From contig JAZDLR010000021.1 in the NCBI GenBank assembly GCA_043801745.1, forward strand, positions 6,018 through 70,017: a stretch of DNA of 64,000 nt. The letters are read 5' to 3'. The DNA comes from Candidatus Komeilibacteria bacterium. Its GTDB lineage: Bacteria; Patescibacteriota; Patescibacteriia; UBA1558; 2-01-FULL-52-15. Position numbers and translations under genes: made by a program. Positions 9,694 to 61,034 of the stretch are shown here, piece after piece. The first letter of the stretch is position 1. Every line of letters begins with the position of its first letter. The notes under the pieces were generated by a model. That model searched no databases. It was not told the origin of the DNA and saw only the letters and a list, made by a program, of their open reading frames with translations.

Positions 9694-9809
9694 GAGCCCT
9701 CCTGAGGAACGAGACGCCTGAACTCTACGATGGAACCGGTCAGCCGTCAAGTTTAAATAGTCACTGCCCTTTGGTACAATACAGTCAGCTAATTTTTTAC
9801 TTATCAACA

Positions 9810-14553: not shown

Positions 14554-16040
14554 TTGGTCTGGAAATTCACTTGCAGCTTAAAACTAAGAGCAAGATGTTT
14601 TGCCGTTGTGCCAATGAGCGTGACAATCAGCAGCCGAATTCCGCTGTTTGTCCGGTGTGTCTGGGGCATCCCGGCACTTTGCCGGTAGTGAATGCCGAAG
14701 CTATCCGTCAGGGTATCCGGCTGGGTCTGGGGATTAATTGCTATATTAACCGTTTTTCCAAGTTTGACCGCAAAAATTATTTTTATCCGGATTTACCCAA
14801 AGGTTACCAGATTACTCAATTTGATCAGCCGCTGGCTACGGACGGTTATTTGCTGTTATTGATTGGTGGTCAGGAGCGGCGTTTCAGCATTGAAAGGATG
14901 CATCTGGAAGAAGACACGGGCAAGAATTTTCATATTAAGGATCAGACTTTGATTGATTTTAACCGGGCCGGCGCGCCACTGGGTGAAATTGTGACTAAGC
15001 CGGATTTCCGCTCGCCGCAGGAAGCTAAGCGTTTTTTGCAGGAATTGAAATTAATCGCCCGCTATTTAGGAGTGTCTGACGCGGATATGGAAAAAGGACA
15101 ATTGCGCGTGGATGTTAATATTTCCCTGCGTCCGGTTGGTGACGTCAAACTATATCCCAAAACGGAAGTTAAAAATGTCAATTCTTTCCGTTCAGTGGAG
15201 CGGGCTCTGCAATATGAGATTGAGCGGCAAACTAAGTTATGGCAAGGCGAGATGCCGCCACAGCAGGGTAGTACCCGCGGCTGGGATGATTCCCGGGAGA
15301 TAACCGTGGAGCAAAGAGTAAAAGAAGAAAGTAATGATTACCGTTTCTTCCCCGAGCCGGATTTACCGCCCCTGGAGTTATCAGTAGAAGAAGTGGAAGA
15401 AATTAAGAAATCTTTACCCGAATTGCCGCTGGCTAAGCGTCACCGTTTTCAGGAGGAATTTCTGCTAAATTATGGCGAGGCTGAAGTTCTTTCTATGGAT
15501 ATCGCGACAGCCAATTATTTTGAAGCCACGGTCAGTGAATTACGAGCTTGGCTGTTATCATCCGGCGAAACCAGCGGCAGTGAAGAAGAAATTTGGGCCG
15601 CCAACCGCAAGAAATTAGCCCGTCTGGCTCTGGCTTGGATTACCACGGAATTATTCAAGCATTTGAATGCCGGCAATAAGACCATTGAGCAGTCGCCGGT
15701 AACACCGGAAGATATGACGGAATTTATTGTTCTGGTTTATCAGGGTAAAGTTAATAGCTCGGCGGCGCAGACAATTTTTGCCACTATGGTCACCACGGGC
15801 GAGGATCCGCAGGCTATTGCTGACCGTTTGGATTTGCATCAGGAGAGCAATGAAGAATCCTTGTCAGAAATTGTGCGAACTATTATTGAGAATAATCCTG
15901 ATCAGGTGAATGATTACCGCAGCGGCAAGCAAGCCATTATGAAATATTTTGTCGGTCTGGCCATGAAAGAATCTAAAGGTAGGGGAAATCCCCAGGTGCT
16001 GGAAAAGCTGTTTAAAGAAGAACTGGAAATTAGGCAGTAG
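14532..16040 (+). CDS. gatB: Asp-tRNA(Asn)/Glu-tRNA(Gln) amidotransferase subunit B
   Basis: 'YEPVIGLEIHLQLKTKSKMFCRC...CPVCLGHPGTLP'. I take the start at the internal ATG. Confidence 0.9.
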   Translation: MSKYEPVIGLEIHLQLKTKSKMFCRCANERDNQQPNSAVCPVCLGHPGTLPVVNAEAIRQGIRLGLGINCYINRFSKFDRKNYFYPDLPKGYQITQFDQPLATDGYLLLLIGGQERRFSIERMHLEEDTGKNFHIKDQTLIDFNRAGAPLGEIVTKPDFRSPQEAKRFLQELKLIARYLGVSDADMEKGQLRVDVNISLRPVGDVKLYPKTEVKNVNSFRSVERALQYEIERQTKLWQGEMPPQQGSTRGWDDSREITVEQRVKEESNDYRFFPEPDLPPLELSVEEVEEIKKSLPELPLAKRHRFQEEFLLNYGEAEVLSMDIATANYFEATVSELRAWLLSSGETSGSEEEIWAANRKKLARLALAWITTELFKHLNAGNKTIEQSPVTPEDMTEFIVLVYQGKVNSSAAQTIFATMVTTGEDPQAIADRLDLHQESNEESLSEIVRTIIENNPDQVNDYRSGKQAIMKYFVGLAMKESKGRGNPQVLEKLFKEELEIRQ

Positions 16041-36587: not shown

Positions 36588-36805
36588 GTTAACTCCCCTT
36601 GTCACTGAAACTCCCTCTGTCTCCCTCTTGTTAAGAGGGAGAACCTTCTCATAGCGTGCCCCTCTTGAAAAGAGGGGACAGGGGAGTTAGTAAGTCGAAG
36701 CCAGTTTTTCAATAACCCCTCTTAGTCTCCCCTTATACTAAGGGGAGAAACTCTTTATCAGGGTTTCCCCCTCTTAAAGTAAGAGGGGAACAAGGGGAGT
36801 TATTT
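36588..36805. repeat. Two tandem MITE-like hairpin elements (TIR TAACTCCCCTTG...CAAGGGGAGTTA; modules CTCCCC-loop-GGGGAG)
   Basis: TAACTCCCCTTGTC at 36588. Its reverse complement occurs at 36676 and 36793. Internal hairpins CTCCCTCTTGTTAAGAGGGAG and CCCCTCTTGAAAAGAGGGG. Confidence 0.45.
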
Positions 36806-36837
36806 GAGATAGAAAAACTCCGTAAATTTAATAGCGC

Positions 36838-36882
36838 CGCGCTTCTATCGATGTTCTGATAGATGCGCGGCGCTGTGTTTCT
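36838..36882 (-). terminator. Intrinsic terminator of the GC-rich island operon
   Basis: AGCGCCGCGC...GCGCGGCGCT 10-bp stem, then ATTAAATTTACGGAGTTTTT on the minus strand, just after the stop of 36900-37673. Confidence 0.55.
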
Positions 36883-36899
36883 CACCTCGTGAAGAGGTG

Positions 36900-37673
36900 T
36901 TACTCGGCGGTCAGATCGGCCAGGACCTGCCCCCAGTCCTTGCGGTCCTGGCGAACGTCGTCCTGCTTGCCGGTTCCCTTGCAGGTTCTGCACTTGCCCA
37001 CATCTTCGTGGCAGCCATTGCACTCGCCATCGACATACTCGTCGTGGCGCTGGCCGGAGCCGTGGCAGTATTGGCATTTGCCGGAGCCGTAACAGTACTC
37101 ACAGTCCTTCTGGCCGAGAACTTCGCGGTAGAAGGGAGTGTGCACGAACATGACCTTGGCCCCGTTGACCCCGAAGTTGGGCTTGAAGCCCTCACGATAG
37201 TAGGACGTTCCAAGATGATCGATGGCGGCGCTCATCGCGCCCTTATGGTGGTTGGTGTCCGTGACCATGGCCACGAACTTGGCGCCGACTTTGGCCGCCT
37301 TCAGGGCTATGATGAAGCCGTATGGCACCTGCTCGGCGGGATGGTAGGCCTCCGAAGCAAGCGTCTGCCTGCTCATCGGCATCATCATGTCGGTGAGCAC
37401 CACATCGAACGGGAAAGGAACCACCGACTTGGCTTCTGCCTCGCGGTGGGCCTTCCAGAAAGCCTTCCATTCCTCGTCACCACCATTCCGGTCGGGCGTG
37501 GCCGGGAAGCCGGCCTCGGTCATGAGGCGCGTGACGTTCTCGTCGTCGATCTTCTTGGCCATGAGTCCCATGGCAGCATCGAAGGAGTCGACGATGGTCA
37601 CATCGTGACCAGCGAGGGAGTCGCGGGCCGACTGACGATGCATTTCCTTGTCTTCGACCACCAGAATTTTCAT
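36900..37673 (-). CDS. Receiver (REC) domain protein fused to a DnaJ-type (CxxCxGxG)x4 zinc finger; about 60% GC
   Basis: 'MKILVVEDKE' acidic pocket and 'DVVLTDMMMP' phospho-acceptor context. C-terminus 'CEYCYGSGKCQYCHGSG...CNGCHEDVGKCRTCKGTG'. The antisense low-complexity ORFs are rejected. Confidence 0.6.
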   Translation of the reverse strand: MKILVVEDKEMHRQSARDSLAGHDVTIVDSFDAAMGLMAKKIDDENVTRLMTEAGFPATPDRNGGDEEWKAFWKAHREAEAKSVVPFPFDVVLTDMMMPMSRQTLASEAYHPAEQVPYGFIIALKAAKVGAKFVAMVTDTNHHKGAMSAAIDHLGTSYYREGFKPNFGVNGAKVMFVHTPFYREVLGQKDCEYCYGSGKCQYCHGSGQRHDEYVDGECNGCHEDVGKCRTCKGTGKQDDVRQDRKDWGQVLADLTAE

Positions 37674-37899
37674 CTCTTCTCCTCATTGCCCGATCAGGGG
37701 CGTGGGGGTTTACGAACTCGTTGTCTTGAAGTTTATATTAACCGCGCAAAAGCACGGTTGATGTTTAAAGAACTTTTCGGATCACTTGAGCATACTAAGT
37801 TTTAGTTACTATGCTCGAGTGATCCCCCCGTCTAATCTTTCGACTAGACGAGGGGTATTGCTGGCGGTCGCGTTGCGCGGCGCGGGTCATGATGGTCGC

Positions 37900-38313
37900 C
37901 TACTGCTTCATGATGAAGCTTTCGGCCGCCCACTTCCACTGGGGCGTGCCTCTCTTGTAGACTTCCACGAAAGCCCGCGGGATGTACTTCCGGGGACAGG
38001 TATAGTCGCCGGTAAGGGCGTGCCCTTTCCCCCAGTAGTGGATCGAGCCATCATCCTTGATGTGGGCGATGGCGACGATCAGGCCGTCGTTCCGGCGGAG
38101 CAGGTCTCCGACCTGCAGGCTGTCTACCTCGGCTTGAGTGATGCCGTCGGTGGAGTTGACGTCGACTGCGGCGGAGGCCGGCGCCGGGTGGGTGGAGTGG
38201 TTCTTGGTACTGTCGCGAGGCAAGATCCAGATGAACACCAGCACTGCTGCAATTAAGAATATGATCACAGCCTGAAAGGGCGTGAGACCCATATTCTTCG
38301 GGCTCTCTTGCAT
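37900..38313 (-). CDS. Membrane-anchored hypothetical protein, paralog 1 (C-terminal ...AFVEVYKRGTPQWKWAAESF)
   Basis: RBS AAGGAGAAAGAGTC-ATG. TM helix, then a Pro/Ala/Ser linker and a roughly 80-aa domain shared with the next gene. Confidence 0.5.
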   Translation of the reverse strand: MQESPKNMGLTPFQAVIIFLIAAVLVFIWILPRDSTKNHSTHPAPASAAVDVNSTDGITQAEVDSLQVGDLLRRNDGLIVAIAHIKDDGSIHYWGKGHALTGDYTCPRKYIPRAFVEVYKRGTPQWKWAAESFIMKQ

Positions 38314-38357
38314 GACTCTTTCTCCTTCTTGCCCATCAGCTGATGGACGGTGGAAGT

Positions 38358-38741
38358 TTACTGGGCGAAGTACCGTTCGGCAGCCCAGATCCAGCCCGGC
38401 TCACCCTTCTTGTAGACAGCGATGAACCTGGTGTCGACTTGGCCGAGCGGGCAGAGCATGGGGGCCGTGTGGTGGCCTTGGTACTCGATGTTGCCGGTTT
38501 TGAGATTCGACCAACTTGGCCGATACTCCACGACCATTGAGTCGGTAGTCAGGAACAGCTTGCCGGGTGTGAAATCCAGGAAGTCGTTCCTGGTGACCGT
38601 GACGGAATTGACGGCGACCGCGGCGGACACCGGCGCCGGCTGGGTGGGGCGTTGCATGGCCGCTATGACAACCCAGGTTACCAATCCCACAGCTATTGCT
38701 GTGCCTATCATGGCATACGGGCCGAGCATTTTTTGGCTCAC
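38358..38741 (-). CDS. Membrane-anchored hypothetical protein, paralog 2 (C-terminal ...FIAVYKKGEPGWIWAAERYF), GTG start
   Basis: An identical upstream block 'CTGATGGGCAAGAAGGAGAAAG' precedes a GTG at 38741. Same architecture as 37900-38313. Confidence 0.45.
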   Translation of the reverse strand: MSQKMLGPYAMIGTAIAVGLVTWVVIAAMQRPTQPAPVSAAVAVNSVTVTRNDFLDFTPGKLFLTTDSMVVEYRPSWSNLKTGNIEYQGHHTAPMLCPLGQVDTRFIAVYKKGEPGWIWAAERYFAQ

Positions 38742-39183
38742 GACACTTTCTCCTTCTTGCCCATCAGCTCCGTCGGTTGGCGGATGGCTGGGGCGGTGAG
38801 GGTAAATTGAAAACTGATTCCTACTCACACAACTGAAGACAGGAGTTGATTGCTATCAACCAAAGGTCAATAGCATGGGCTTTACCTCTACGAGAGAAGG
38901 AAACCCGGCAAACAAGATTCGGGCAGTAACTAGATAAATCCAGTTGCGGCCACAAATACAAGTTCGCAAAATATCAGCAACCTGCCTCCATCTGTGTGAG
39001 TAGGAACGTTTAGTGGAATTAATCGCGTCAAATCACGTTAAACGTGACTAGCGCGATTTTAGTTTCAAGGAACTGACTTTGAATTAGTCACTTCTAAGCT
39101 TTCAACCAGTTAAAAGTTTAGAAGTGAGGAGGAGGAAAACAGCTGATGCTGTCTGCCTCCTCCTTGTGCCCATACGATCGGGA

Positions 39184-39471
39184 CTAGACCGGGATGAAGT
39201 GGTCGTTGTCCGCGTCGTCCCATTCGTTGGGGTCGCCGCAGGACACGCCGGTGGCGGTCCAGGCGGGGAGGAAGTTGATGGTCACCGGCAGCAGGTCGGA
39301 ACAGGTGTCGGCAGAGACGATTCGGGCCCACCGCCTTTCGATCCGCCGGAGGTGGTTCAGGGTCCAGTCATCAACGCTGTTCCAGAACTTCCACCCCTTC
39401 TCACCACCGAAGCGGTGAGACTGGGGCCTGAACTTCTTTCCGCGGCCGGGCAGTCTGACGAAAACGCGCAT
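39184..39471 (-). CDS. Hypothetical 95-aa Trp-rich protein of the GC-rich island
   Basis: RBS AAAGGTGG-5-ATG at 39471. The antisense ORF is Gly/Val/Pro low-complexity. Confidence 0.4.
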   Translation of the reverse strand: MRVFVRLPGRGKKFRPQSHRFGGEKGWKFWNSVDDWTLNHLRRIERRWARIVSADTCSDLLPVTINFLPAWTATGVSCGDPNEWDDADNDHFIPV

Positions 39472-39651
39472 TTCTGCCACCTTTCTTTTGTGGAGGATGA
39501 CAAAAACCCGTGAAAAAACTAAATTGATCTCAAGGTACACTTTGTCGTATCGAGCGTTGCTCGACAGCGACTCATCTAAACTTACATCTCTTGATATAAA
39601 CTTGGATGAGCGCGCGAGTCCCGAAGGACCTCGCGCGGCGGAGACTAGCAC

Positions 39652-39819
39652 CTAGCGCCGGTTGATGGCCTTGATGATTTCCTGGGCCGAGATGTCGATC
39701 TGAGTGACGACTGCCAGGATTCCGGCAATCACGCCCGGCCCGATCAGGAAGTCGCACACCGGAAAAATCGCAGCGAACATGAAGCAAGTTGCTGACAGGA
39801 AAGCAAGAATGAAGGGCAT
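39652..39819 (-). CDS. Hypothetical 55-aa hydrophobic peptide (MPFILAFLSATCFMFAAIFPVCDFLIGPGVIAGILAVVTQIDISAQEIIKAINRR)
   Basis: Hand-translated. RBS AAGGAGACTATC-ATG. First gene downstream of the consensus promoter at 39899-39927. Not in the supplied ORF track. Confidence 0.35.
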   Translation of the reverse strand: MPFILAFLSATCFMFAAIFPVCDFLIGPGVIAGILAVVTQIDISAQEIIKAINRR

Positions 39820-40010: not shown

Positions 40011-40170
40011 TACCTCACCCCAACCCTCTCCTTGAAAAGGAGAGGGAGGATGCGCGGAGGTTGAGTAGAGCGACTAGCTTTATAAATAGCGTTCCTCTCC
40101 TTTTGAAGGAGAGGACAGGCCTGCCCGCCGTAGCTCTGAAAGTAACGAAGAGCGAAGGCGGGTGAGGTAA
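40011..40170. repeat. MITE family A copy 1 (TIR TACCTCACCCC...GGGTGAGGTA; internal CTCTCC-TTGAAAA-GGAGAG hairpins)
   Basis: Terminal 11-bp inverted repeats. Homologous copies at 61644-61824 and 62227-62384; a related fragment at 59225-59300. Confidence 0.6.
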
Positions 40171-40179
40171 TCTAACAAA

Positions 40180-41028
40180 TTATTGACGACTCAAAGCCAG
40201 CACCCGAATCCGGTTACTGAGATCAGGATAGAAAGTATAATCCCAATCAGGCAGAGTTTGCTTAATATCGCTTTCAATAATATCTTTTTGACTGGGATCA
40301 AGTTCTAAGAGAACCAGTGAACCTGATTTGGTAAATGCCGGCAGTTGCGGTAAAAGTTGTCGGATAAAGTGCAATCCTTGTTTACCGCCGTGCAGAGCTA
40401 ACTCCGGTTCGTGCTTAATCGAGGGCTCGGTTAATTGTTCAATGGTAAGGTAGGGGAGATTAGCTACAATCAGGTTGTAGGTTGTAGGTTGTAGGTTGTA
40501 GTCAGAGAACGTATTAAAAAGATTTGATTGTATGAAAGTAACAGCCGCGTTATTTTCAATGGCATTTTTTTTCGCTACTGCCAGAGCTTTGGCTGAAATA
40601 TCACTGGCAAAGTAATTAAACTGATTATTGGTTTCACAAGCCAAAGTAATGATCAGACAGCCCGAGCCAGTTCCGACATCCAGAATACTGGCTTGTTTTT
40701 TATCTTTCAGATATGCTAAAGCTTTCATAATTAGAACTTCGCTATCCGGCCGGGGAATTAGCACATCAGGATTAACTTTAAATTTCAGGCCATAGAATTC
40801 CTGTAAACCGCGGATATAGGCCATCGGTTTACCCGTTGCCCGCTCTTTAACCTGATTAATAAAATTGTTGTATTTATCATCGTTAATGTCTTGTCCCGGA
40901 TGCATCAGTAGCTGACTGCGGTCTACTTCTAAAACATGACTAAGCAAAAGATCGGCTTCGCCGGGATCAATAGATTGGGCTCGTAAGATTGAAGCTGCCT
41001 GTTCTAGGGCAGCTTGGATGGTAGGCAT
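40180..41028 (-). CDS. prmC: Release factor glutamine N5-methyltransferase PrmC (HemK)
   Basis: SAM motif 'ILDVGTGSGCLIITLA' and 'LIVANLPY' (NPPY-type). Directly downstream of prfA. Contains an in-frame (CTACAAC)4 repeat. Confidence 0.8.
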   Translation of the reverse strand: MPTIQAALEQAASILRAQSIDPGEADLLLSHVLEVDRSQLLMHPGQDINDDKYNNFINQVKERATGKPMAYIRGLQEFYGLKFKVNPDVLIPRPDSEVLIMKALAYLKDKKQASILDVGTGSGCLIITLACETNNQFNYFASDISAKALAVAKKNAIENNAAVTFIQSNLFNTFSDYNLQPTTYNLIVANLPYLTIEQLTEPSIKHEPELALHGGKQGLHFIRQLLPQLPAFTKSGSLVLLELDPSQKDIIESDIKQTLPDWDYTFYPDLSNRIRVLALSRQ

Positions 41029-41029
41029 A

Positions 41030-42082
41030 TTAAGTTGTGGCCGTCTGTTTTTCGGCTGTATGCAGGGCTTGGATTAATTCATCTAAATCGCCGTCCATAA
41101 TATCCGGCAAGCTATGACCGGTATATTTTATGCGGTGGTCAGTCAGCCGGTCTTGGGGAAAGTTATAGGTGCGGATTTTCTCACTTCGGTCACCGGTGCC
41201 GATCTGACTTTTACGCGCATCAGCCCGCTCTTGATGCAGACGTTCTTTTTCTAGCGCGAGAAGCCGCGAAGCTAAGACTTGCAGGGCTTTTAAGCGGTTT
41301 TGCTGTTGTGACTTTTCATCCTGACAAGTTACTATCATTCCTGTGGGCACGTGGACTACGCGTACGGCGGAATAAGTTGTATTAACTGATTGTCCGCCGT
41401 GTCCGCCGGCCATAAAAGTATCTATGCGTAGATCCTCGGGCTTAAGTTGAATATCCGCTTCTTCCGCTTCCGGCAGAACAGCCACAGTGACAGTGGAAGT
41501 ATGAACACGGCCGGCTTTTTCCGTGGCCGGTACCCGCTGTACGCGGTGTACCCCGGATTCATATTTAAGATCACGGTAAACGTGGTCGCCGTGCACTTCG
41601 AAAATGATTTCTTTATAACCGCCAAGCTCCGTGCGGTTGGCGGAAATAATGTGCGGCCGCCAACCGTGACGCTCAGCGTAGCGGGTATACATGCGGAATA
41701 ATTCCGCGGCAAAAAGCGCCGACTCATCGCCACCGGCCCCGGGACGGATTTCTATAATAATATCTTTCTTGTCCAGAGGGTCAGCTGGATTAGTCAGGTC
41801 TTCCAGTTTATTTTTAGCTTCGGTGAGTTGCGATCCCAGTTGAATAATCTCCTCCCGCGTCAGAGCAGCCATTTCCGGATCAGGCTCGTTGTTCAAGGAC
41901 AACTCCAGATGCTCAATTTCGAACAGCAGCTGGCTGACAGTTTCGCTGGTTTCCACAATGTCTTTCTTTTCCTTGTATTCTTTATTTAAAGCTTGCATTT
42001 TCGCCGGATCAGAAGCAGCGGCCGGAGTGGACATTTCAGCCTCTAGTTCTTGCAGACGTAGTTTTAGTTCTTGAATATTCAT
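41030..42082 (-). CDS. prfA: Peptide chain release factor 1
   Basis: GGQ motif 'GGHGGQSVNTT', RF1-type 'PATEKAGRVHTS'. Confidence 0.9.
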   Translation of the reverse strand: MNIQELKLRLQELEAEMSTPAAASDPAKMQALNKEYKEKKDIVETSETVSQLLFEIEHLELSLNNEPDPEMAALTREEIIQLGSQLTEAKNKLEDLTNPADPLDKKDIIIEIRPGAGGDESALFAAELFRMYTRYAERHGWRPHIISANRTELGGYKEIIFEVHGDHVYRDLKYESGVHRVQRVPATEKAGRVHTSTVTVAVLPEAEEADIQLKPEDLRIDTFMAGGHGGQSVNTTYSAVRVVHVPTGMIVTCQDEKSQQQNRLKALQVLASRLLALEKERLHQERADARKSQIGTGDRSEKIRTYNFPQDRLTDHRIKYTGHSLPDIMDGDLDELIQALHTAEKQTATT

Positions 42083-52337: not shown

Positions 52338-52366
52338 ATTTCTAGTATTATTATTAATTTACACCT

Positions 52367-53379: not shown

Positions 53380-53745
53380 ATGTCAGTAGAAATCCCTGAT
53401 CCTAATAATGAATTAGCTTTTGGTCCAGGCGATCGTGTGGAGGATTTTGATTTTCACCCCGACCATGAAGGTAAATATGATTTTGCTGAAGCATTGGAAC
53501 TGAGTGAGGATTTCGTTGACTTATGTCTAGTGTTCCGGGAGCAGGATACAATTAAGTCTGCCTCTGGCTCTGATGTTTCGGTTGATGATACTGTGCGTTT
53601 ACTTGAGCAGATTGCCGCCAAGGCCAAGGAGGAGATATCCGTTCGCAATGAGCAAGAGTTGCACGCTCTGATCTTACAGCTGCCCAATGTCGTGGGTTTA
53701 TTTGACAAAGTTATCAAGTTGTTGAATCCTGAAGGTAAGAATTAA
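53380..53745 (+). CDS. Hypothetical acidic protein
   Basis: 121-aa ORF, start overlapping the gap stop. Confidence 0.35.
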   Translation: MSVEIPDPNNELAFGPGDRVEDFDFHPDHEGKYDFAEALELSEDFVDLCLVFREQDTIKSASGSDVSVDDTVRLLEQIAAKAKEEISVRNEQELHALILQLPNVVGLFDKVIKLLNPEGKN

Positions 53746-53757
53746 CTTTTTGTCGCC

Positions 53758-54963
53758 ATGAAACTCTATAATAGCCTGACGCGAGTTAAGGAGGATTTCC
53801 TGCCCTTAGTGCCTGGTCAGGTGGGTTTGTATACTTGCGGACCCACTGTTTATGACTATCAGCACATTGGCAATTTACGCGCTTATATTACCTGGGACGT
53901 GCTTAAGCGGCTGTTAACCCATCATGGCTTAGCCGTCACGCATATTATGAATATTACCGATGTCGGTCATCTGACTTCGGATAATGACAGCGGCGAAGAT
54001 AAGTTGGAGGTGGCCAAACTGCGCGACCGTAAGAGCGCCTGGGATGTGGCCTTGGATTATACCCAAATTTTTAAAGACGATTTAGCGGCTGTCAATGTTC
54101 TGTCGCCGACTCATTTTGTGCCGGCTACGGAAACGATCACCGAGCAGATTGCGCTGGCGCTGAAATTAGACGCGGCCGGCTTTCTTTACCGCACCAGCGA
54201 TGGCATGTATTTTGATACCAGCAAATTGGCTGACTACGGTAAACTGGCGCAGATAAATAAAGTGGATTTACTGGCTGGCGCGCGTGTGGAAATGAATCCG
54301 GAAAAGAAAAATGTCAGTGATTTTGCCGTTTGGAAATTTAGTCCCAAGAAAAGCCAGCGCGATATGGAGTGGAACAGTCCCTGGGGCAAGGGTTTCCCGG
54401 GTTGGCATTTGGAATGTTCGGCTATCAGCATGTTGTATTTAGGTGAGACTTTTGATATTCATACCGGCGGTATTGATCATCTGACCGTGCATCATCCTAA
54501 TGAAATGGCGCAGTCAGAGGCGGTTACCGGTAAGCCGCTGGCCAAATATTGGCTGCATAATGCTTTCTTAAATTTCGGTGAAGATAAAATGTCTAAATCC
54601 AAGGGTACTTTCGTGACTTTGGATGATCTGCGGGAAAAAGGTATTCCGCCGCTGGCTTACCGTTTTTTCCTGCTGCAAACTCATTACCGTAAAGTTGTAC
54701 AGTTTTCTTGGGACGCTCTGGAAGCAGCCAAGACCGGTCTGATTAACTTAGGCCAGCAGATTGTCTATTTTCCCGATGCCTCAGGTTCCTGTCAGGAATA
54801 TGATCAGCAATTCTTGGAAGCCATAGATAATGATTTGGCTACGCCTCAGGCCCTGGCCGTAATGATGGAAATGTTAGGCTCGCGTTTGCCTTCAGCGCAG
54901 AAGATGGGCAGTTTGGAAATGATGGAAAGTATTTTAGATTTAGGCTTACTGGAAGAGCGCTAG
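53758..54963 (+). CDS. cysS: Cysteine--tRNA ligase, catalytic and DALR region, ending at an in-frame TAG
   Basis: 'LYTCGPTVYDYQHIGNLRAYITWDV' (HIGH), 'KMSKSKGT'. Only 401 aa. The in-frame TAG lies at 54961-54963. Confidence 0.8.
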   Translation: MKLYNSLTRVKEDFLPLVPGQVGLYTCGPTVYDYQHIGNLRAYITWDVLKRLLTHHGLAVTHIMNITDVGHLTSDNDSGEDKLEVAKLRDRKSAWDVALDYTQIFKDDLAAVNVLSPTHFVPATETITEQIALALKLDAAGFLYRTSDGMYFDTSKLADYGKLAQINKVDLLAGARVEMNPEKKNVSDFAVWKFSPKKSQRDMEWNSPWGKGFPGWHLECSAISMLYLGETFDIHTGGIDHLTVHHPNEMAQSEAVTGKPLAKYWLHNAFLNFGEDKMSKSKGTFVTLDDLREKGIPPLAYRFFLLQTHYRKVVQFSWDALEAAKTGLINLGQQIVYFPDASGSCQEYDQQFLEAIDNDLATPQALAVMMEMLGSRLPSAQKMGSLEMMESILDLGLLEER

Positions 54964-55131
54964 CGCCGCCGGCAAATTCCGCAGATTGCTTATCCTTTGC
55001 TTAATGAGCGCACTAAGGCGCGTGAGGAAAAGAATTGGAAACGTTCGGACCGTTTGCGTGAAGAACTGTCCAAGTTAGGAATTGAAGTAAAAGATACCGG
55101 CGATGGTCAGCAGGCCGTGATGAGGCACTAG
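54964..55131 (+). pseudogene. cysS: In-frame continuation of cysS after the TAG encoding the conserved CysRS C-terminal anticodon-binding helices (...ERTKAREEKNWKRSDRLREELSKLGIEVKDTGDGQQAV)
   Basis: 56 codons in the same frame as cysS. The motif pattern matches canonical CysRS C-termini (ARKAKDW..AD.IRDEL...GI.LEDT..G). Confidence 0.5.
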
Positions 55132-55174: not shown

Positions 55175-55615
55175 ATGGAAATTGGATTAATTGTCCATGT
55201 TTTAATTTTAAATACTGAGGGTAAGCTTTTAGTTTTGCGCCGGCAGAAGAATGATAATGTTTTACCGGGTTATTGGGATATACCCGGCGGAACTTTAGAA
55301 GTAGGGGAGGATCCGGCAGTTGGCGCAGCGCGTGAGGCGCGTGAGGAATGCGGTTTGGAAGTTGAGCATCTGCGGATCGTACATTTTACTTCTAATATTG
55401 ACCAAGAGAAGAATAAACAGTTTGTCCGGTTAATTTTTCAGGCCCGCGCTAAAACCGATAATATTAAGCTTAATCCGGAGGAGCATGATCATTACCGTTG
55501 GATTGACCCCGTTAGAGAGGAAATCTCTAACGGGGTTGATCTTGCACATCCCGACGACCTAAAATATGTTGATTATTTGAAGGGGTGTTTTGGGTTGTTG
55601 ATTGCCAGGAGTTGA
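55175..55615 (+). CDS. NUDIX hydrolase
   Basis: Nudix box '[26 protein letters not shown]'. The 3' end contains the CCCCGTTAGAG-N7-CTCTAACGGGG palindrome. Confidence 0.7.
55504..55539. repeat. Perfect 11-bp inverted repeat ACCCCGTTAGAG-aggaaat-CTCTAACGGGGT embedded in-frame in the NUDIX CDS (encodes [12 protein letters not shown])
   Basis: Same half-site as the intergenic palindromes at 5654, 8452 and 50094. Followed by TTGATC-18-TAAAAT. Confidence 0.45.
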
Positions 55616-55686
55616 TTTAGTTTTGGCGAATAGGCCAGAGTTATTTTTAAAAGCTCCATCTGTAATGTTTCTGGTAGAAATTTAGT

Positions 55687-56235
55687 TTAAGATTTACACC
55701 ACTGAGACCAATCATTATAACTGGCAACCCTTCGATGATCACGACCGACTTTATATTCTGCGCTAAAGGCATCAAAAGGAATGAATTTGTTCTTTCCTGG
55801 CAGATAAACCTCAATCCAGGCATGACTGCGCCAGACACCGTTTCTCTTTAATTTTCCGTCAATAAGTTTCGTTGGTAAGCCAAGGTAACGAAGCACCAGA
55901 GCACTGACGCTGGCGATGCTGCCACAAGTACGTAGTCGCCGCCGGAGTATGACCGATACCGGTAGACAGCGCGACTCACTCTTTTTTTGAGTTGTGGAGG
56001 TGTGATATTTGGCGGGATTAAAATAGTTTCGAATATCGGTGATAATTTTAAAAATGAGCTTATCGCTTACTTGATAATTCTTATAGTTAGAAAAGTTTCG
56101 TAAAAATGAAATTGGGTAGTCGGAGCAATAAGGGCCATTAGTTAAATATTTCGAGGGTGAGGTCAAAATATTATTGCTATTTTGAATTAATAATTTTTTC
56201 TCTTTCTTCGTGCTCGAGATGTTTTGTTTCTTCAT
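55687..56235 (-). CDS. Transglutaminase-like cysteine protease-fold protein
   Basis: Cys in 'LRTCGSIASV', His in 'RSHAWIEVYLP', Asp in 'IPFDAF', with core spacing. Last gene of the candidate RiPP operon. Confidence 0.5.
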   Translation of the reverse strand: MKKQNISSTKKEKKLLIQNSNNILTSPSKYLTNGPYCSDYPISFLRNFSNYKNYQVSDKLIFKIITDIRNYFNPAKYHTSTTQKKSESRCLPVSVILRRRLRTCGSIASVSALVLRYLGLPTKLIDGKLKRNGVWRSHAWIEVYLPGKNKFIPFDAFSAEYKVGRDHRRVASYNDWSQWCKS

Positions 56236-56548
56236 AATATATTAGGTGCTTAATTTCATGATCAATAACTTTGTTGAAACCACCGGCATTTTCAATTTCC
56301 CAAGGGCAGATAAAAATTTTATTAGGAGGAGTAAAGGCTCCCCAGGTGCCACAGTGTACCCAATAACAAATAATATCTCGATCGGAAAAGAGTTCGATTT
56401 TGGGTCTCTTGAACCACAGCAATAACATTCTAAAGATATTTGGATAGAAAACTACGAGTTTTTTTTGTTTAAGCCACTTAAGATTGCTTAAAGTTCTATA
56501 ACTCCAGCGTAAGTCTTCAATTAGGCTATATTTATAGGCAATCATCAA
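56177..56548 (-). CDS. Small HExxH-motif protein (putative zinc metallopeptidase-like)
   Basis: 'VIDHEIKHLIYYEETKH'. 123 aa. Overlaps the next gene by 59 nt, so the true start is uncertain. Confidence 0.35.
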   Translation of the reverse strand: MMIAYKYSLIEDLRWSYRTLSNLKWLKQKKLVVFYPNIFRMLLLWFKRPKIELFSDRDIICYWVHCGTWGAFTPPNKIFICPWEIENAGGFNKVIDHEIKHLIYYEETKHLEHEEREKIINSK

Positions 56549-56698
56549 GAATAATTTCTAAGATAGTGTGTTTAGAAACAACGATAAAGCATTTACTAAT
56601 TGAGGTAAATTTTGTCCGTTTATAGTCTCGTTCGTGGACAATCGGCGTAGTAGAGACCGTTGATTATGTATTTTGAGTACACGGGTGTCTGGCACGTC

Positions 56699-57409
56699 TT
56701 AAATATTATTCAAATATTCTTCTGATAGTTTATCAAAGGTCGTGATAATATCGCGATTTACTTTCCAGCTATCAATCACTAATTGACGTAGTTTCTCATG
56801 ACCCAGATAGCCAATTTCAGGACGTTCAATTAAATCGCTCAATTCTAAATTAAGTAATTCAGTCAAGGACTCTTTGATATCGTACCTCTTCTTTTCCTCC
56901 ATTTCACGTAATTTTTTGTCAAAAACGTGATAAGTGTAAAAATGAAGTAGCTCGTGGCAAATTATTCTTAGTGGCTCATTACTATAAGCCGTGACAAAAA
57001 AATAATTTTGACCTAAACCGCATCTATCATTTGTTGTCAAATAGGCGGTCAATTCTTGTTGCGGGTAATCGTAATTGAAAATTTTATCCAGGCGGGTTTT
57101 AACGTTATTTTCAACTGGTAGCCATAATGTCTGGATGTCAAGTAATTTTTGTCGAAGATCAAATTTATTATATTTGACGAAGCCTTCGATAAATTTTGTC
57201 AAATTATTATCGCTAAAATCATATGCAAATTTTTTAGTAAAAAACGCCAAAACCTTTGAATCGCCGCCTTTATATTTGGTATTGGCAATTATTTTATAGT
57301 TTTCTATATCTTTTTCTAGATCATACTTTATATTTAGCAGCATAATGAATATTGTTAATAAATAGTTGAGGCCCACCTTTAGGGTAGGCCTCAATGGATT
57401 ACTAGTCAA
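56699..57409 (-). CDS. HExxH-motif protein (putative metallopeptidase-like), possibly membrane-anchored
   Basis: 'LRIICHELLHFYTYHV' with a downstream Glu. N-terminal hydrophobic segment. Confidence 0.4.
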   Translation of the reverse strand: MTSNPLRPTLKVGLNYLLTIFIMLLNIKYDLEKDIENYKIIANTKYKGGDSKVLAFFTKKFAYDFSDNNLTKFIEGFVKYNKFDLRQKLLDIQTLWLPVENNVKTRLDKIFNYDYPQQELTAYLTTNDRCGLGQNYFFVTAYSNEPLRIICHELLHFYTYHVFDKKLREMEEKKRYDIKESLTELLNLELSDLIERPEIGYLGHEKLRQLVIDSWKVNRDIITTFDKLSEEYLNNI

Positions 57410-57420
57410 CGTGATGTCAA

Positions 57421-57588
57421 CTAGTCCTGATCACATGACACGCAGTTGGTGCCACCGCTTCCGCTGCTACCGCCGTCTGAGCAGTCACAGTTGTAGCAGT
57501 TGTCAACGATGACGAGCGGTAACATTTGCATGGCTGGAAAGTCTTCCCTTGCTTCCAGCATGGCTTTTATGTCGAACTCCTCATTCAT
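57421..57588 (-). CDS. Candidate RiPP precursor peptide (55 aa): MNEEFDIKAMLEAREDFPAMQMLPLVIVDN-CYNCDCSDGGSSGSGGTNCVSCDQD
   Basis: RBS AGGAGGACGGTT-ATG. The ATG overlaps the radical-SAM stop in ATGAATGA (translational coupling). The C-terminal core has 5 Cys plus many Asp/Ser/Thr/Gly. Confidence 0.55.
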   Translation of the reverse strand: MNEEFDIKAMLEAREDFPAMQMLPLVIVDNCYNCDCSDGGSSGSGGTNCVSCDQD

Positions 57589-58948
57589 AACCGTCCTCCT
57601 TTCGCTCTCGGTCAAGAGAGATGAACCCCCTTGAAGCAAGTAGAGAAATGACGCGCGTGAATTCTCTATCGCCAGGATGACATCCGGACAATTGAGCTAG
57701 ACGTGCAAGCGATATTGGAGAATTGTTCCTAAGAAAGATGACAAAATGAAACATTGGCCCATTGATCGCGGTTACGTTCCTGTTTGCCCGCGAAGAGGCG
57801 ATCAAATATGTGTTTTTTCCCTCCCCTCTATATCTTAGTGGGTTTGACAACGTTACTACAGTGTCGGGTGTTAACTGTGGTGCTATACCTGAATTTGGTT
57901 TCTCAGGTGGTCTTGCGGTGGGAGTTGTCATCCATGGGTCCTCACCTTTGTCATGGCCGGTTAAAGCTTTGGCGGTAATTCTGCAGCCGCCGAAGCAATT
58001 TGTCACTAGGCCACAGGCGAGGCATCTATCGGGAGTTGTCTGTGTGTCTCGCCACTCAGACATTTTTTCCCAGATTGTCTCCAGTGGTTCGGATAGAAGG
58101 TTCCCATAGATTTTTGGGTTATGAGAACAGGGACGGATGTCGCCATTGTTGGCAATAGAAGCTACGGTTTTTCCCGCCTGACAGCAACGACTTACGAAAG
58201 AGTAACCGGCATCTCTTACGTACGGCGGGAATATACATTTGGGTAGCGCTTCAAAGATGTCAACCTCCATCCGTAGTTTTTCCTTAATACGGATTAGCTC
58301 TTTGATGACGGTTAGAACATCTTCTTGAGACAGCAGACGTGTGGAGTCAGGATTTTGAAGATTGAGTGCCATTGGGGTGACACCAAACATCCTTACTCCT
58401 AGATCACGCATCCGTTCCGCGGTTTGTCTGATATCGGCCAGATTTCGTTTATTGACCACCATATTGATGGCAAAGCGCTGTCCACTAGCGATAAGCATTT
58501 TAAGGTTATATTCAAACCTTTCGTAAATGCCGCCGCCAGTCATAGCCGAGTACAGTCGAGCATCACTCGAAGGACAGGAAACGAGCATGCTGTCGAGACC
58601 ACGGGCCACAAGAGATGCCAGTGATGCTTGATTGAGAAGAATCAGATTGGTGTTAAGCGATACATAAACACCATTTTGTTTGAGGTAATGAATCACCCTG
58701 AGAGCTAGCTCCTTGCGTACTAAAGGCTCGCCCCCGGTAACTACCACACCAAAAATCCGATCTTCAACGAGTTTCCTGGCCATTTCCATTACCAGCTCAT
58801 CAGGAATATCGGCCGTTTTTTTGACACGGTCGAATTCGAGATGATAGCAATGACTGCAACGCAAATTACATCTGTCAGTAATCTCCAGTTGCATATTTAT
58901 GGGTCGAGTCAGAGTCGGCATCTTGTCCTCCGAGGTATCGTTATGCAC
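57581..58948 (-). CDS. Radical SAM enzyme with C-terminal SPASM/twitch cysteine cluster (RiPP maturase-like; SCIFF/ranthipeptide-type)
   Basis: 'CNLRCSHCY' (CX3CX2C). Auxiliary clusters 'CCQAGK...CSHNP...CLACGLVTNCFGGC'. The likely start is the internal ATG at 58921 (GGAGGACAAG-ATG). Confidence 0.8.
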   Translation of the reverse strand: MHNDTSEDKMPTLTRPINMQLEITDRCNLRCSHCYHLEFDRVKKTADIPDELVMEMARKLVEDRIFGVVVTGGEPLVRKELALRVIHYLKQNGVYVSLNTNLILLNQASLASLVARGLDSMLVSCPSSDARLYSAMTGGGIYERFEYNLKMLIASGQRFAINMVVNKRNLADIRQTAERMRDLGVRMFGVTPMALNLQNPDSTRLLSQEDVLTVIKELIRIKEKLRMEVDIFEALPKCIFPPYVRDAGYSFVSRCCQAGKTVASIANNGDIRPCSHNPKIYGNLLSEPLETIWEKMSEWRDTQTTPDRCLACGLVTNCFGGCRITAKALTGHDKGEDPWMTTPTARPPEKPNSGIAPQLTPDTVVTLSNPLRYRGEGKNTYLIASSRANRNVTAINGPMFHFVIFLRNNSPISLARLAQLSGCHPGDREFTRVISLLASRGFISLDRERKEDGYE

Positions 58949-59369: not shown

Positions 59370-60062
59370 ATGAGTAAAATCCTGGCAGATCCGCAGTTAT
59401 TAGGACTGGCAATCGTTACTCTGTTAAATCTAGCTTTAGGACTGTATGTTTTTTTAAAGGATTTTAGAAATGTTTTAAATAAGATATTTCTGTTTTTAGC
59501 CATTTCAATAGTGGCTTGGTGTATCGCTATCTTCTGTACAATTTATTTTTATGAGGATGTCTTCCTATATGATTTGTCTGATAAGTTTACTTACATTGCC
59601 GGTCTTCTAATAGCCATTGGTTTTTATCTTTTTAGCATTTATTACGGCTATAAAAACCATAAGATCTCATCTTTAATTGTCATTGGTTATATTTTATTTT
59701 TTGCTATATTTTCTTATTTAGCCCTATTCTCACATTTGTTTGTGATTAATACTGCCAAAGAGGGCTTAATAACAGTTATTTACCGCAATCAGATGTCTTA
59801 TGCGATATATTCTTTGGCACTCATAAGCTTGTTCATTCTAGGATTAGTTGAATTATGGAAGAAAATGAAGGGCGGGGACGGAGTATATAAACAGCATTTC
59901 TTGACCTTAATCATATTAGTGGGTTTTTCTATTATTCTGAGTATATTCTTTGATCTATCGCTTTCAGCATTTAATAATTATTCTTATAGCGCTGTTGGCC
60001 CCCTATCGTCAGTTTTATTTATCTTCGCCATTATGAGGATGATTAATAGCAGTAAAGAATAG
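59370..60062 (+). CDS. Hypothetical polytopic (about 7 TM) membrane protein
   Basis: 230-aa ORF of alternating hydrophobic helices, Phe/Ile-rich. Divergent from the RiPP-like operon. Confidence 0.5.
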   Translation: MSKILADPQLLGLAIVTLLNLALGLYVFLKDFRNVLNKIFLFLAISIVAWCIAIFCTIYFYEDVFLYDLSDKFTYIAGLLIAIGFYLFSIYYGYKNHKISSLIVIGYILFFAIFSYLALFSHLFVINTAKEGLITVIYRNQMSYAIYSLALISLFILGLVELWKKMKGGDGVYKQHFLTLIILVGFSIILSIFFDLSLSAFNNYSYSAVGPLSSVLFIFAIMRMINSSKE

Positions 60063-60065
60063 CCA

Positions 60066-61034
60066 ATGTCTAAACGCAAGAAAATCGCTTTAATCTATTC
60101 AACTGGCACAGTCTTATCTTCCCTGAAAAACCGCAGTATTGTTTTTGTTGATTCTGATAGTGATATTCCCAAGTGGCTGGAGTCTATTCCGGAGATTTCT
60201 CTAATTGCTGATATTGAGCCGCAATTTTTTTTGTCTGAATCCGCGACTATGGGATATTCTGATACTTTGCGGTTGTCAGAGCAGATTGACATTCTGCGGC
60301 GGCAGGTTGATGGCATTGTGATTCTGATGCGGACCGAAAGTATTATTCAGCAAGCTACGCTACTGAATTTTCTCAATCAAAATGTCACCATTCCGGTTAT
60401 TATTACCGGCGCTGTGGTTTCGCCCCAAGCTTTGACCGAGGGCGTACTGTCGGATATTTCCAAGAAAAATGTCGCCTTGAGCCTGAAGAGTAATGTGATT
60501 AACGCCACTCAGGTAGCAACCCGGGATTTTCACGGCTTTGGCCTGATGTATGGTAACCGTTTAATCGAACCGGTCCGCGCCCAGAGAGATAATATTGAAG
60601 CGCTTAATGTATTTAGTTCAATTGATGGTAACTACGCCGGCCGGGTGGAATTTGGCATTAGCTTGAATCAGCCCAAAAAGGCCGATAAGCCAACTAAACA
60701 TTATAATAATTTTTCTACTAATGTAACTGTTATTGACTCGTCTTTCTTAACTCTGGGTAGCTTAAAAAATCTGACAGCTGACGCGGTTATTATTAAAATT
60801 CGGGAAAATGAGCAGTTACCTTTGGAAGTTTACGAAGCCTTACGTCAGTTAAAACAGCCGGTAATTCTTTATAATTATTGGTACGTTTTGGAGCATAAAG
60901 GCCTGATAGATATTTCTCATATTACTGAAGAGAGCTTATTGGCAAAAGTAATGTGGCTGGCGGCTGACAGCAAATCAACGGCAGCGTTTTATCAAAGAAT
61001 AAGCGAAAACGTAATTGGGGAACTACTGCAATGA
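60066..61034 (+). CDS. Asparaginase-family-like protein with degenerate catalytic motifs (possibly non-catalytic)
   Basis: 'IALIYSTGTVLSS' (cf. TGGTIAG) and 'GIVILMRTESI' (cf. HGTDTM), 'PVIITGAVVSP'. 322 aa. Confidence 0.35.
   Translation: MSKRKKIALIYSTGTVLSSLKNRSIVFVDSDSDIPKWLESIPEISLIADIEPQFFLSESATMGYSDTLRLSEQIDILRRQVDGIVILMRTESIIQQATLLNFLNQNVTIPVIITGAVVSPQALTEGVLSDISKKNVALSLKSNVINATQVATRDFHGFGLMYGNRLIEPVRAQRDNIEALNVFSSIDGNYAGRVEFGISLNQPKKADKPTKHYNNFSTNVTVIDSSFLTLGSLKNLTADAVIIKIRENEQLPLEVYEALRQLKQPVILYNYWYVLEHKGLIDISHITEESLLAKVMWLAADSKSTAAFYQRISENVIGELLQ

What the first reader, a model, noticed from the sequence alone, without database searches (positions are those of the whole stretch)
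53758..55131. cysS interrupted by an in-frame TAG followed by 56 in-frame codons encoding the conserved CysRS C-terminus
The 401-aa cysS ORF ends at the TAG at 54961-54963, within the palindrome GCGCTAGCGC. The reading frame continues uninterrupted to 55131 and encodes ...[41 protein letters not shown]. This matches the canonical C-terminal anticodon-binding helices of CysRS (..RxxARKAKDWxxADxIRDxLxxxGIxLEDTxxG..). TAG is used as a genuine stop elsewhere in the window (gyrB, rplK, rplY). The options are therefore programmed read-through or suppression, a very recent nonsense mutation in an essential gene, a split gene whose C-terminal piece is made separately, or a sequencing error.
Basis: seen in the sequence. 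Interest (0 to 1): 0.55.

Follow-up and report, generated by a model that had tools for sequence, protein, structure and literature searches.

The report
Premature stop codon in cysS
A single A-to-T change has turned a lysine codon into a stop codon near the end of the essential cysteinyl-tRNA synthetase gene of an uncultured Komeilibacteria genome. This is an ordinary recent nonsense mutation or a consensus error, not a recoding signal.

Summary
cysS (53758-54960) is cut by an in-frame TAG at 54961-54963. Another 55 sense codons follow, ending at a second TAG at 55129-55131, and they encode the CysRS C-terminal anticodon-binding domain (Pfam CysS_C, E=4e-12).

The four closest relatives (85-86% identity) are 457 aa, exactly the read-through length. 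The three whose DNA was aligned have AAG (Lys) at this codon, so the lesion is one A->T transversion. Synonymous sites are saturated against these relatives, yet the tail's non-synonymous divergence (0.08-0.13) equals the body's (0.09-0.10). The stop is therefore very recent, or not real.

TAG is a normal stop in this genome. It ends 20 of 59 ORFs, including gyrB, rplK and L25. An intact RF1 gene (prfA-prmC) lies in the window. None of the other 119 listed homologues is truncated. There is no suppressor tRNA in the window, no downstream RNA structure and no credible internal start.

My estimates are: a real, recent, unprogrammed and possibly leaky nonsense allele about 0.5; an assembly or sequencing error about 0.33; programmed read-through or a two-piece enzyme about 0.05 each. 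Only read-level data can separate the first two. Interest is low.

The parts
53758..54960 (+). cysS body, 401 codons. It holds the class I catalytic domain (HIGN at residues 36-39, KMSKS at 277-281), the stem-contact fold and the helical bundle.
   Evidence: Pfam tRNA-synt_1e E=3.7e-85 over residues 16-325. TIGR00435 cysS scores 364.6 bits against a cutoff of 340. It is identical to NCBI MFH0874070.1 from a Candidatus Komeilibacteria MAG.
54961..54963 (+). In-frame TAG. The context is CGC-TAG-CGC, so C lies at both -1 and +4.
   Evidence: The three relatives aligned at the DNA level have AAG (Lys) at this codon, and all four closest relatives have Lys in the protein alignment. The column is variable in more distant homologues (K/Q/T/N/R/E).
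54957..54966 (.). Perfect 10-bp palindrome GCGCTAGCGC, created by the A->T change. The presumed ancestor is GCGCAAGCGC.
   Evidence: Only 95 of 6577 (1.4%) possible stop-creating substitutions in the window's genes would make a perfect palindrome of 10 bp or more. This test was made post hoc.
54964..55128 (+). 55 intact sense codons encoding the CysRS C-terminal anticodon-binding domain.
   Evidence: Pfam CysS_C E=4.1e-12. Collinear with the 457-aa relatives without gaps. pN is 0.076-0.13 in the tail against 0.086-0.10 in the body, with pS saturated.
55129..55131 (+). Natural terminator (TAG) of the full-length gene.
   Evidence: The relatives end at the same aligned codon with TAA.
54997..55131 (+). 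44-aa TTG-initiated ORF, annotated in GenBank as hypothetical protein V1846_04525. It is an annotation by-product of the interruption.
   Evidence: It would lack the first 11 tail residues. The 20 nt upstream are 45% GC and give no anti-SD pairing.
41030..42082 (-). prfA, peptide chain release factor 1. This is context showing that UAG is read as a stop in this organism.
   Evidence: NCBIfam NF001859 scores 481 bits (cutoff 400) and TIGR00019 scores 464.7 (cutoff 423). PAT and GGQ motifs are present in the translation. prmC lies immediately downstream at 40180-41028.

Best explanation
A canonical, single-piece cysS gene carries a very recent, unprogrammed AAG(Lys)->TAG point mutation in the variable linker just before its C-terminal anticodon-binding domain.

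Shown:
- One base differs from the sense codon of the relatives.
- The downstream 55 codons are intact and as constrained as the rest of the gene.
- The organism terminates at UAG with RF1.

Inferred:
- In cells that carry the allele, most ribosomes stop and release a 401-aa enzyme. It retains the catalytic core but lacks the domain that reads the GCA anticodon.
- A small fraction of ribosomes read UAG with a near-cognate tRNA (Gln, Lys, Glu or Tyr). Because this linker position tolerates K/Q/T/N/R/E, that fraction is fully functional 457-aa CysRS.
- The allele is therefore a leaky hypomorph. It is probably a transient or strain-level variant captured by the MAG consensus.
- It may have arisen by template switching that perfected the quasi-palindrome GCGCAAGCGC.
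For: - The lesion is a single A->T change. The closest relatives P0001 and P0003-P0005 (85-86% identity) are all 457 aa, which equals the read-through length. All four have Lys at the column, and the DNA aligned for P0003 and P0004 shows AAG.
- The tail is Pfam CysS_C at E=4e-12, with no frameshift or second stop.
- pS is saturated (0.70-0.88). Tail pN (0.076-0.13) is about equal to body pN (0.086-0.10), so the tail was under full purifying selection for essentially the whole lineage.
- TAG is an ordinary stop: 20 of 59 ORFs end in it, and RF1 and PrmC are intact.
- The rest of the window looks clean. About 49 kb of coding sequence is uninterrupted, including ORFs of 1546, 1460 and 1150 aa. 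This argues against a noisy assembly.
- The position is about the most tolerable one in the gene. It is a variable linker column, it lies at the N-terminal boundary of the last domain, and it is in a C-UAG-C context.
- In Salmonella pseudogenes, read-through of in-frame stops was mostly at UAG (68.6%), with C enriched at -1 (58%) and +4 (37.5%). Protein levels were about 10% of the intact homologues (PMC9122581).
- The change perfects a 10-bp palindrome. Only 1.4% of possible stop-creating substitutions in the window would do that. This is the signature of quasi-palindrome template-switch mutagenesis (PMC7202029).
Against: - No reads and no second assembly of the same strain could be found. 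The base call itself is therefore unverified.
- cysS is normally essential, and the anticodon is a major tRNA-Cys identity element (PMC9976931). A truncating allele should be strongly selected against.
- The palindrome argument is post hoc. The mutated base lies at the very centre of a spacer-less palindrome, which is not the typical site of hairpin-templated correction.
- Leakiness is extrapolated from Salmonella and E. coli, not measured in Patescibacteria.
- Whether a second cysS or a SepRS/SepCysS route exists elsewhere in the genome could not be checked.
Confidence: 0.5

Rival explanations
1. Sequencing, assembly or consensus error. The organism's real codon is AAG (or another sense codon), and the T at 54961 exists only in the deposited contig. 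It could come from low coverage, a polishing artefact or an amplification artefact.
For: - It needs only one wrong base.
- The tail is perfectly intact and fully constrained, as expected if the gene is not interrupted at all.
- The gene is essential, and none of the other 119 listed homologues is truncated.
- The sequence comes from a MAG represented by one contig in one source.
- 4.5% of random substitutions in coding sequence create a stop. Across a whole MAG, a consensus error rate of 1e-5 would already give a few tenths of such an event.
Against: - The other ~49 kb of coding sequence in the window shows no further broken gene. The error rate is therefore not high.
- A random error would not be expected to fall at the most tolerable spot of the gene, in the leakiest context, and also to perfect a 10-bp palindrome (p about 0.014, post hoc).
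- A<->T miscalls are not the typical systematic error of the common platforms (my own knowledge).
Confidence: 0.33
2. Programmed read-through or suppression. The UAG is deliberately decoded, by a suppressor tRNA, by pyrrolysine-type machinery or by context-driven read-through. This would produce full-length CysRS as a regulated fraction of the product.
For: - The tail is intact and constrained.
- The C-UAG-C context matches the context enriched at read-through sites in Salmonella (PMC9122581).
- The column tolerates many residues.
Against: - The stop is not conserved. All close relatives have Lys there (AAG where the DNA was aligned), and all other listed homologues are full-length.
- RF1 and PrmC are intact, and TAG terminates 20 of 59 ORFs, including conserved genes.
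- The window has no tRNA and no Rfam element.
- The 120 nt around the stop fold worse than shuffled sequences (z=+1.55).
Confidence: 0.05
3. Two-piece enzyme. The 401-aa body and a separately initiated 44-51-aa C-terminal peptide (TTG 54997 or ATT 54976/54985, possibly by reinitiation after termination) assemble in trans.
For: - The stop falls exactly at a domain boundary.
- GenBank annotates the 44-aa ORF as a separate protein.
- Naturally split aaRS genes exist in other lineages (my own knowledge).
Against: - No ATG or GTG is available.
- Gene starts in this window have AT-rich leaders (mean GC 0.31). The 20 nt before ATT 54976, ATT 54985 and TTG 54997 are 75%, 70% and 45% GC, with no anti-SD pairing.
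- A TTG start would delete the first 11 residues of the domain.
- No relative is split, so there has been no time for the pieces to evolve affinity for each other.
- A single in-frame stop is not how the known split synthetases are organised.
Confidence: 0.05
4. A stably short CysRS. The lineage has dispensed with the anticodon-binding domain, as MshC has, and the downstream sequence is a decaying remnant.
For: - The 401-aa product keeps the whole catalytic core and still passes the TIGR00435 cutoff.
- MshC-type homologues naturally lack this domain.
Against: - The tail shows no decay: no indels, no further stops, and pN equal to the body although synonymous sites are saturated.
- The MshC model scores 205 bits against a cutoff of 485.
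- All relatives keep the domain.
Confidence: 0.02

Closest known systems
Bacterial 'pseudo-pseudogenes': genes with an in-frame stop that still yield low levels of full-length protein (Salmonella Typhi and Paratyphi A, PMC9122581)
   Same: An unprogrammed nonsense mutation in an otherwise intact gene. The stop is UAG with C at -1 and +4, which is the class and context most often read through in that study. The expected outcome is mostly truncated product plus a minor full-length fraction.
   Different: Translation through the stop has not been measured here. The gene is an essential aaRS, not a dispensable virulence or metabolic gene. The sequence is from a MAG, so the base itself is unverified.
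Canonical bacterial cysteinyl-tRNA synthetase (TIGR00435; E. coli CysRS, PDB 1LI5/1U0B)
   Same: Same domain order and motifs. The read-through product aligns end to end: TIGR00435 positions 1-462 of 466 and PDB CysRS chains.
   Different: [quoted passage not shown]
MshC (cysteine:GlcN-Ins ligase), a CysRS homologue that naturally lacks the anticodon-binding domain
   Same: The 401-aa product would have the same architecture, a catalytic core without the C-terminal domain (8hfm and 3c8z align to query residues 13-369).
   Different: It is not an MshC: TIGR03447 scores 205 bits against a cutoff of 485. The missing domain is still encoded immediately downstream and is under constraint.
Naturally split aminoacyl-tRNA synthetases (for example split LeuRS of Aquifex and split AlaRS of Nanoarchaeum; my own knowledge)
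   Same: The break lies at a domain boundary.
   Different: Those splits are conserved, and each piece has its own start. Here the split is one in-frame stop that is unique to one contig, and the second piece has no credible start.
Quasi-palindrome-associated template-switch mutations (Ripley 1982; Lovett laboratory, PMC7202029)
   Same: The substitution converts the imperfect inverted repeat GCGCAAGCGC into a perfect one.
   Different: The repeat is short (10 bp) and has no spacer, and the changed base is at its centre. Classical cases correct mismatches in the stems of hairpins that have loops.

Membership tests
Canonical CysRS (TIGR00435 / Pfam tRNA-synt_1e + CysS_C) | Score above the curated cutoff of the equivalog model | tested here: met
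   TIGR00435 scores 364.6 bits (401 aa) and 390.7 bits (read-through) against a cutoff of 340. PF01406 gives E=3.7e-85.
Canonical CysRS (TIGR00435 / Pfam tRNA-synt_1e + CysS_C) | Class I signature motifs and zinc ligands | tested here: met
   HIGN at 36-39 and KMSKS at 277-281 are present in the translation. C27, C220, H245 and E249 are invariant across the 15 aligned sequences. Their assignment as zinc ligands rests on my own knowledge of E. coli CysRS.
Canonical CysRS (TIGR00435 / Pfam tRNA-synt_1e + CysS_C) | C-terminal anticodon-binding domain in one polypeptide with the catalytic body | tested here: not met
   The domain is encoded (PF23493, E=4e-12) but separated from the body by the TAG at 54961-54963. 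This feature would be met if the TAG is an error or is read through.
MshC | Score above the TIGR03447 cutoff | tested here: not met
   205.6 bits against a cutoff of 485.1.
Genome-wide UAG reassignment | Loss or inactivation of RF1 | tested here: not met
   Intact prfA at 41030-42082 (NF001859, 481 bits, cutoff 400; PAT and GGQ motifs), followed by prmC.
Genome-wide UAG reassignment | TAG not used as a terminator; in-frame TAGs in many genes | tested here: not met
   20 of 59 ORFs end in TAG. gyrB, rplK and L25 end there with complete C-terminal Pfam domains. The in-frame extensions after the gyrB stop and the 19428-24068 stop have no Pfam match.
Pyrrolysine or suppressor-tRNA decoding of UAG | tRNA with a CUA anticodon (pylT or a suppressor), and pylS/BCD | not testable with these tools
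   There is no tRNA at all in the 64-kb window and no Rfam hit. The rest of the genome could not be retrieved.
Programmed stop-codon read-through | The stop codon is conserved at the same position in relatives | tested here: not met
   Lys in all four closest relatives, with AAG in the DNA aligned for P0003 and P0004. Sense residues occur in all 14 aligned homologues. None of the other 119 listed hits is truncated.
Programmed stop-codon read-through | Stimulatory downstream RNA structure or motif | tested here: not met
   The MFE of 54931-55050 is -26.5 kcal/mol against a shuffle mean of -32.1 (z=+1.55).
Naturally split aaRS | The second piece has its own translation start, and the split is conserved | tested here: not met
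   Only ATT and TTG candidates exist, behind GC-rich sequence that is not leader-like. No relative is split.
Quasi-palindrome template-switch mutation | The mutation increases the complementarity of a pre-existing imperfect inverted repeat | tested here: inconclusive
   GCGCAAGCGC becomes GCGCTAGCGC. Only 1.4% of possible stop-creating substitutions would do the same. The test is post hoc, and the changed base is at the centre of a palindrome without a loop.

The most novel reading that the evidence does not exclude
The TAG is real and fixed in this Komeilibacteria strain. The cell lives on a CysRS supply made by inefficient termination at C-UAG-C, or by a body plus a separately made mini-domain. 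An essential aminoacyl-tRNA synthetase would then be maintained through stop-codon read-through or as a newly born split enzyme in a reduced-genome symbiont.
Probability: 0.07. Interest if true: 0.55.

Novelty: already known. Interest (0 to 1): 0.15.

Why it matters
The main value is practical. The GenBank record annotates a 401-aa 'cysteine--tRNA ligase' plus a 44-aa 'hypothetical protein' (V1846_04525). Together these are one 457-aa cysS with a one-base lesion. Both should be flagged as a possible error or pseudogene rather than counted as a short CysRS and a new small protein.

If the allele is real, it would be a small natural example of an essential synthetase surviving as a leaky nonsense hypomorph in a Patescibacteria population. 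That would be mildly interesting for how reduced-genome symbionts tolerate deleterious mutations. It would not be a new mechanism.

Tried and rejected
- **Same-strain contigs.** I looked for contigs that would verify the base. Exact-protein look-ups of the 401-aa cysS, the NUDIX gene, GAPDH, the 121-aa ORF and the 44-aa ORF all returned nothing. The scans of genome contigs and metagenome contigs found nothing closer than 59-61% identity.
- **Stand-alone tails.** A tail-only protein search returned only the window's own annotated 44-aa ORF. It is uninformative on whether other genomes have stand-alone tails.
- **Genome-wide TAG recoding.** Rejected on RF1 and stop-codon usage.
- **Other TAG-separated genes.** The HisKA_7TM ORF (59370-60062) is followed in frame by the asparaginase ORF. 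These are separate genes in relatives too. The extensions after the gyrB stop and the 19428-24068 stop have no Pfam match.
- **Shine-Dalgarno test for an internal start.** It is uninformative as such, because this genome does not use SD at all. I used leader GC content instead.
- **RNA structure around the stop.** None. Rfam found nothing in the window.
- **The palindrome as a motif.** Not significant. As a mutational signature it is only weakly suggestive.
- **Effect of deleting the CysRS C-terminal domain.** I found no quantitative data in the held papers. Hauenstein et al. 2004 is not held.
- **Assembly quality.** Neighbouring overlapping ORFs (9771-11299, 13313-16040, 40180-42082) are distinct complete genes, not fragments.

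Full report
**Observation**

The window holds an ATG-initiated ORF at 53758-54963 (401 aa) that ends at a TAG at 54961-54963, inside GCGCTAGCGC. Translating straight through gives 55 further sense codons, [56 protein letters not shown] second TAG follows at 55129-55131.

The 401-aa part is an unambiguous CysRS. Pfam tRNA-synt_1e gives E=3.7e-85, and TIGR00435 scores 364.6 bits against a cutoff of 340. The 55-aa tail alone matches Pfam PF23493, 'Cysteinyl-tRNA ligase anticodon binding domain', at E=4.1e-12. Model positions 4-49 of 51 align to tail residues 5-50, so the stop sits exactly at the N-terminal edge of that domain.

The read-through product aligns to TIGR00435 from position 1 to 462 of 466 and end to end with solved CysRS structures. 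Against E. coli CysRS (1LI5/1U0B), the stop falls in the linker that follows the motif LGLLEQE, upstream of the C-terminal domain.

**What relatives show**

The 401-aa protein is NCBI MFH0874070.1, 'MAG: cysteine--tRNA ligase [Candidatus Komeilibacteria bacterium]', on a 70,416-bp contig. The next four hits (P0001, P0003, P0004, P0005; 85-86% identity) are all 457 aa. That is exactly the length of the read-through product, and they align to it without a single gap.

All four have Lys at the TAG column. At the DNA level the codon is AAG in the aligned loci, which encode P0003 and P0004. The lesion is therefore one A->T transversion. More distant homologues have K, Q, T, N, R or E there, so the column is a variable linker residue. 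Among the 120 best hits, only the window's own protein is truncated.

Synteny (GAPDH, a ~120-aa ORF, then cysS) is shared with these relatives.

**Is the tail still under selection?**

I ran codon-wise Nei-Gojobori counts against the four relatives. Synonymous sites are saturated: pS is 0.72-0.78 in the body and 0.70-0.88 in the tail. The non-synonymous proportion in the tail (0.076-0.13) is the same as in the body (0.086-0.10). There are no indels and no further stops.

The tail has therefore been held by purifying selection for essentially the whole history of this lineage. A long-standing truncation, a 'genuinely short CysRS', is excluded. The stop is very recent, or not real, or it is decoded.

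**Is UAG a stop in this organism?**

Yes.
- Of 59 non-overlapping ORFs of 80 aa or more, 29 end in TAA, 20 in TAG and 10 in TGA.
- gyrB, rplK and the L25 gene end in TAG with their C-terminal Pfam domains complete. The in-frame sequence after the gyrB stop and after the 19428-24068 stop has no Pfam match.
- The window itself encodes release factor 1 at 41030-42082 on the minus strand. NF001859 scores 481 bits (cutoff 400) and TIGR00019 scores 464.7 (cutoff 423). The PAT and GGQ motifs are present, and prmC follows directly.
- No tRNA gene and no Rfam family is present in the 64 kb.

Genome-wide reassignment is excluded. A dedicated suppressor cannot be excluded outside the window, but nothing points to one.

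**Programmed read-through or a split gene?**

The stop is not conserved in any relative. The 120 nt around it fold worse than shuffled controls (z=+1.55).

For a separately made tail, the only start-like codons are ATT 54976, ATT 54985 and TTG 54997. This genome does not use Shine-Dalgarno sequences. Duplex energy to the anti-SD at 47 gene starts has a median of -0.4 kcal/mol, against -2.3 for random positions. Gene starts instead have AT-rich leaders, with mean GC 0.31. The 20 nt before the three candidates are 75%, 70% and 45% GC. A TTG start would also remove the first 11 residues of the domain.

GenBank does annotate this 44-aa ORF as hypothetical protein V1846_04525. I regard that as a by-product of automatic gene calling.

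**Error or real mutation?**

This cannot be settled without reads. I could not retrieve any other contig of the same strain.

Arguments for an error:
- One base suffices.
- The gene is essential.
- The anticodon that the missing domain reads is a major identity element of tRNA-Cys (PMC9976931).
- 4.5% of random substitutions in coding sequence create a stop.

Arguments for a real allele:
- The remaining ~49 kb of coding sequence in the window is uninterrupted, including ORFs of 1546, 1460 and 1150 aa, ThrRS, GatB and DnaE. The assembly is not sloppy.
- The stop lies at about the most tolerable place in the gene: a variable linker column, at the boundary of the last domain, in a C-UAG-C context.
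- In Salmonella pseudogenes, read-through of in-frame stops was mostly at UAG (68.6%), with C enriched at -1 (58.3%) and +4 (37.5%). Protein levels were about 10% of the intact homologues (PMC9122581).
- The A->T change turns the imperfect inverted repeat GCGCAAGCGC into a perfect 10-bp palindrome. Only 95 of 6577 (1.4%) possible stop-creating substitutions in the window's genes would create a perfect palindrome of 10 bp or more. This is the signature of quasi-palindrome template-switch mutagenesis (PMC7202029). The test is post hoc, and the geometry (central base, no loop) is atypical.

I put a real, recent, unprogrammed allele at about 0.5 and an error at about 0.33.

**Mechanism, if real (inferred, not shown)**

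RF1 terminates most ribosomes at the UAG. They release a 401-aa CysRS with an intact catalytic core but without the anticodon-binding domain, an architecture like that of MshC. The protein itself is not an MshC: TIGR03447 scores 205 bits against a cutoff of 485.

A minor fraction of ribosomes insert a near-cognate residue. The column accepts many residues, so those molecules are normal 457-aa CysRS. The allele would then be a leaky hypomorph that is segregating in, or has recently swept through, a small population.

**Comparison with known systems and novelty**

Functionally and by membership, this is a canonical cysS carrying a nonsense lesion. The closest described phenomenon is the 'pseudo-pseudogene' class of Salmonella. 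It fails the tests made for UAG reassignment, programmed read-through, split synthetases and MshC (see the membership table). Nothing here is new in kind.

The practical consequence is an annotation correction. The 401-aa 'ligase' and the 44-aa 'hypothetical protein' are one gene. Interest is 0.15. The most novel reading not excluded is an essential synthetase maintained through read-through or as a nascent split. I give it a probability of about 0.07.

Noticed in passing
window, 47 gene starts (e.g. 52347-52366, 53738-53757): Genes in this window show no Shine-Dalgarno signal. Pairing energy to the anti-SD has a median of -0.4 kcal/mol at starts against -2.3 at random positions. Leaders are AT-rich (mean GC 0.31 against 0.45 for the window) and often end in CT or ACT just before the ATG.
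   Followed up: partly
window 36700-39700: A ~3-kb block has GC of 0.55-0.61, against 0.45 elsewhere. It carries overlapping ORFs on both strands and has no Pfam hit (E<=0.1 apart from a 0.017 partial Response_reg match) and no Rfam hit. Internal ~430-450-bp-spaced direct repeats occur at 38152/38604 and 38311/38739. It may be a foreign or fast-evolving gene cluster.
   Followed up: partly
window 36590-36800 and 40025-40114: Clusters of short GC-rich hairpin units of the type CCCTCTT-loop-AAGAGGG or CCTCTCCTT-loop-AAGGAGAGG flank the GC-rich block. They look like REP-like or terminator-like repeats.
   Followed up: no
window 54997-55131: The public record annotates the cysS tail as a separate 44-aa hypothetical protein (V1846_04525). 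This is an artefact of the interruption and should be merged with cysS.
   Followed up: yes
window 59370-61034: The HisKA_7TM ORF (59370-60062) ends in TAG, and the asparaginase ORF (60066-61034) follows in the same frame after one codon. Relatives have them as separate genes with a ~50-nt gap, and they carry three tandem HisKA_7TM paralogues where the window has one. The shared frame is coincidental.
   Followed up: yes
window 1-64000: CTAG is under-represented: 108 sites against 173 +/- 13 expected from dinucleotide-preserving shuffles. The 64 kb contains no tRNA gene and no Rfam family.
   Followed up: no
window 11467-13164: A 565-aa ORF has two stretches matching the ThyX domain (Pfam Thy1). 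It appears to be a tandem or fused ThyX. It sits in a nucleotide-salvage cluster with dCMP deaminase, a kinase, dUTPase, thymidine kinase and thymidylate kinase.
   Followed up: no
L001 4631-5860, L168 5448-6566 versus window 55175-58948: Synteny with relatives breaks right after cysS. Relatives carry YD-shell/Ntox44 toxin-like genes or a 258-262-aa ORF. The window has a NUDIX hydrolase, followed by minus-strand transglutaminase-like and radical-SAM/SPASM genes.
   Followed up: no
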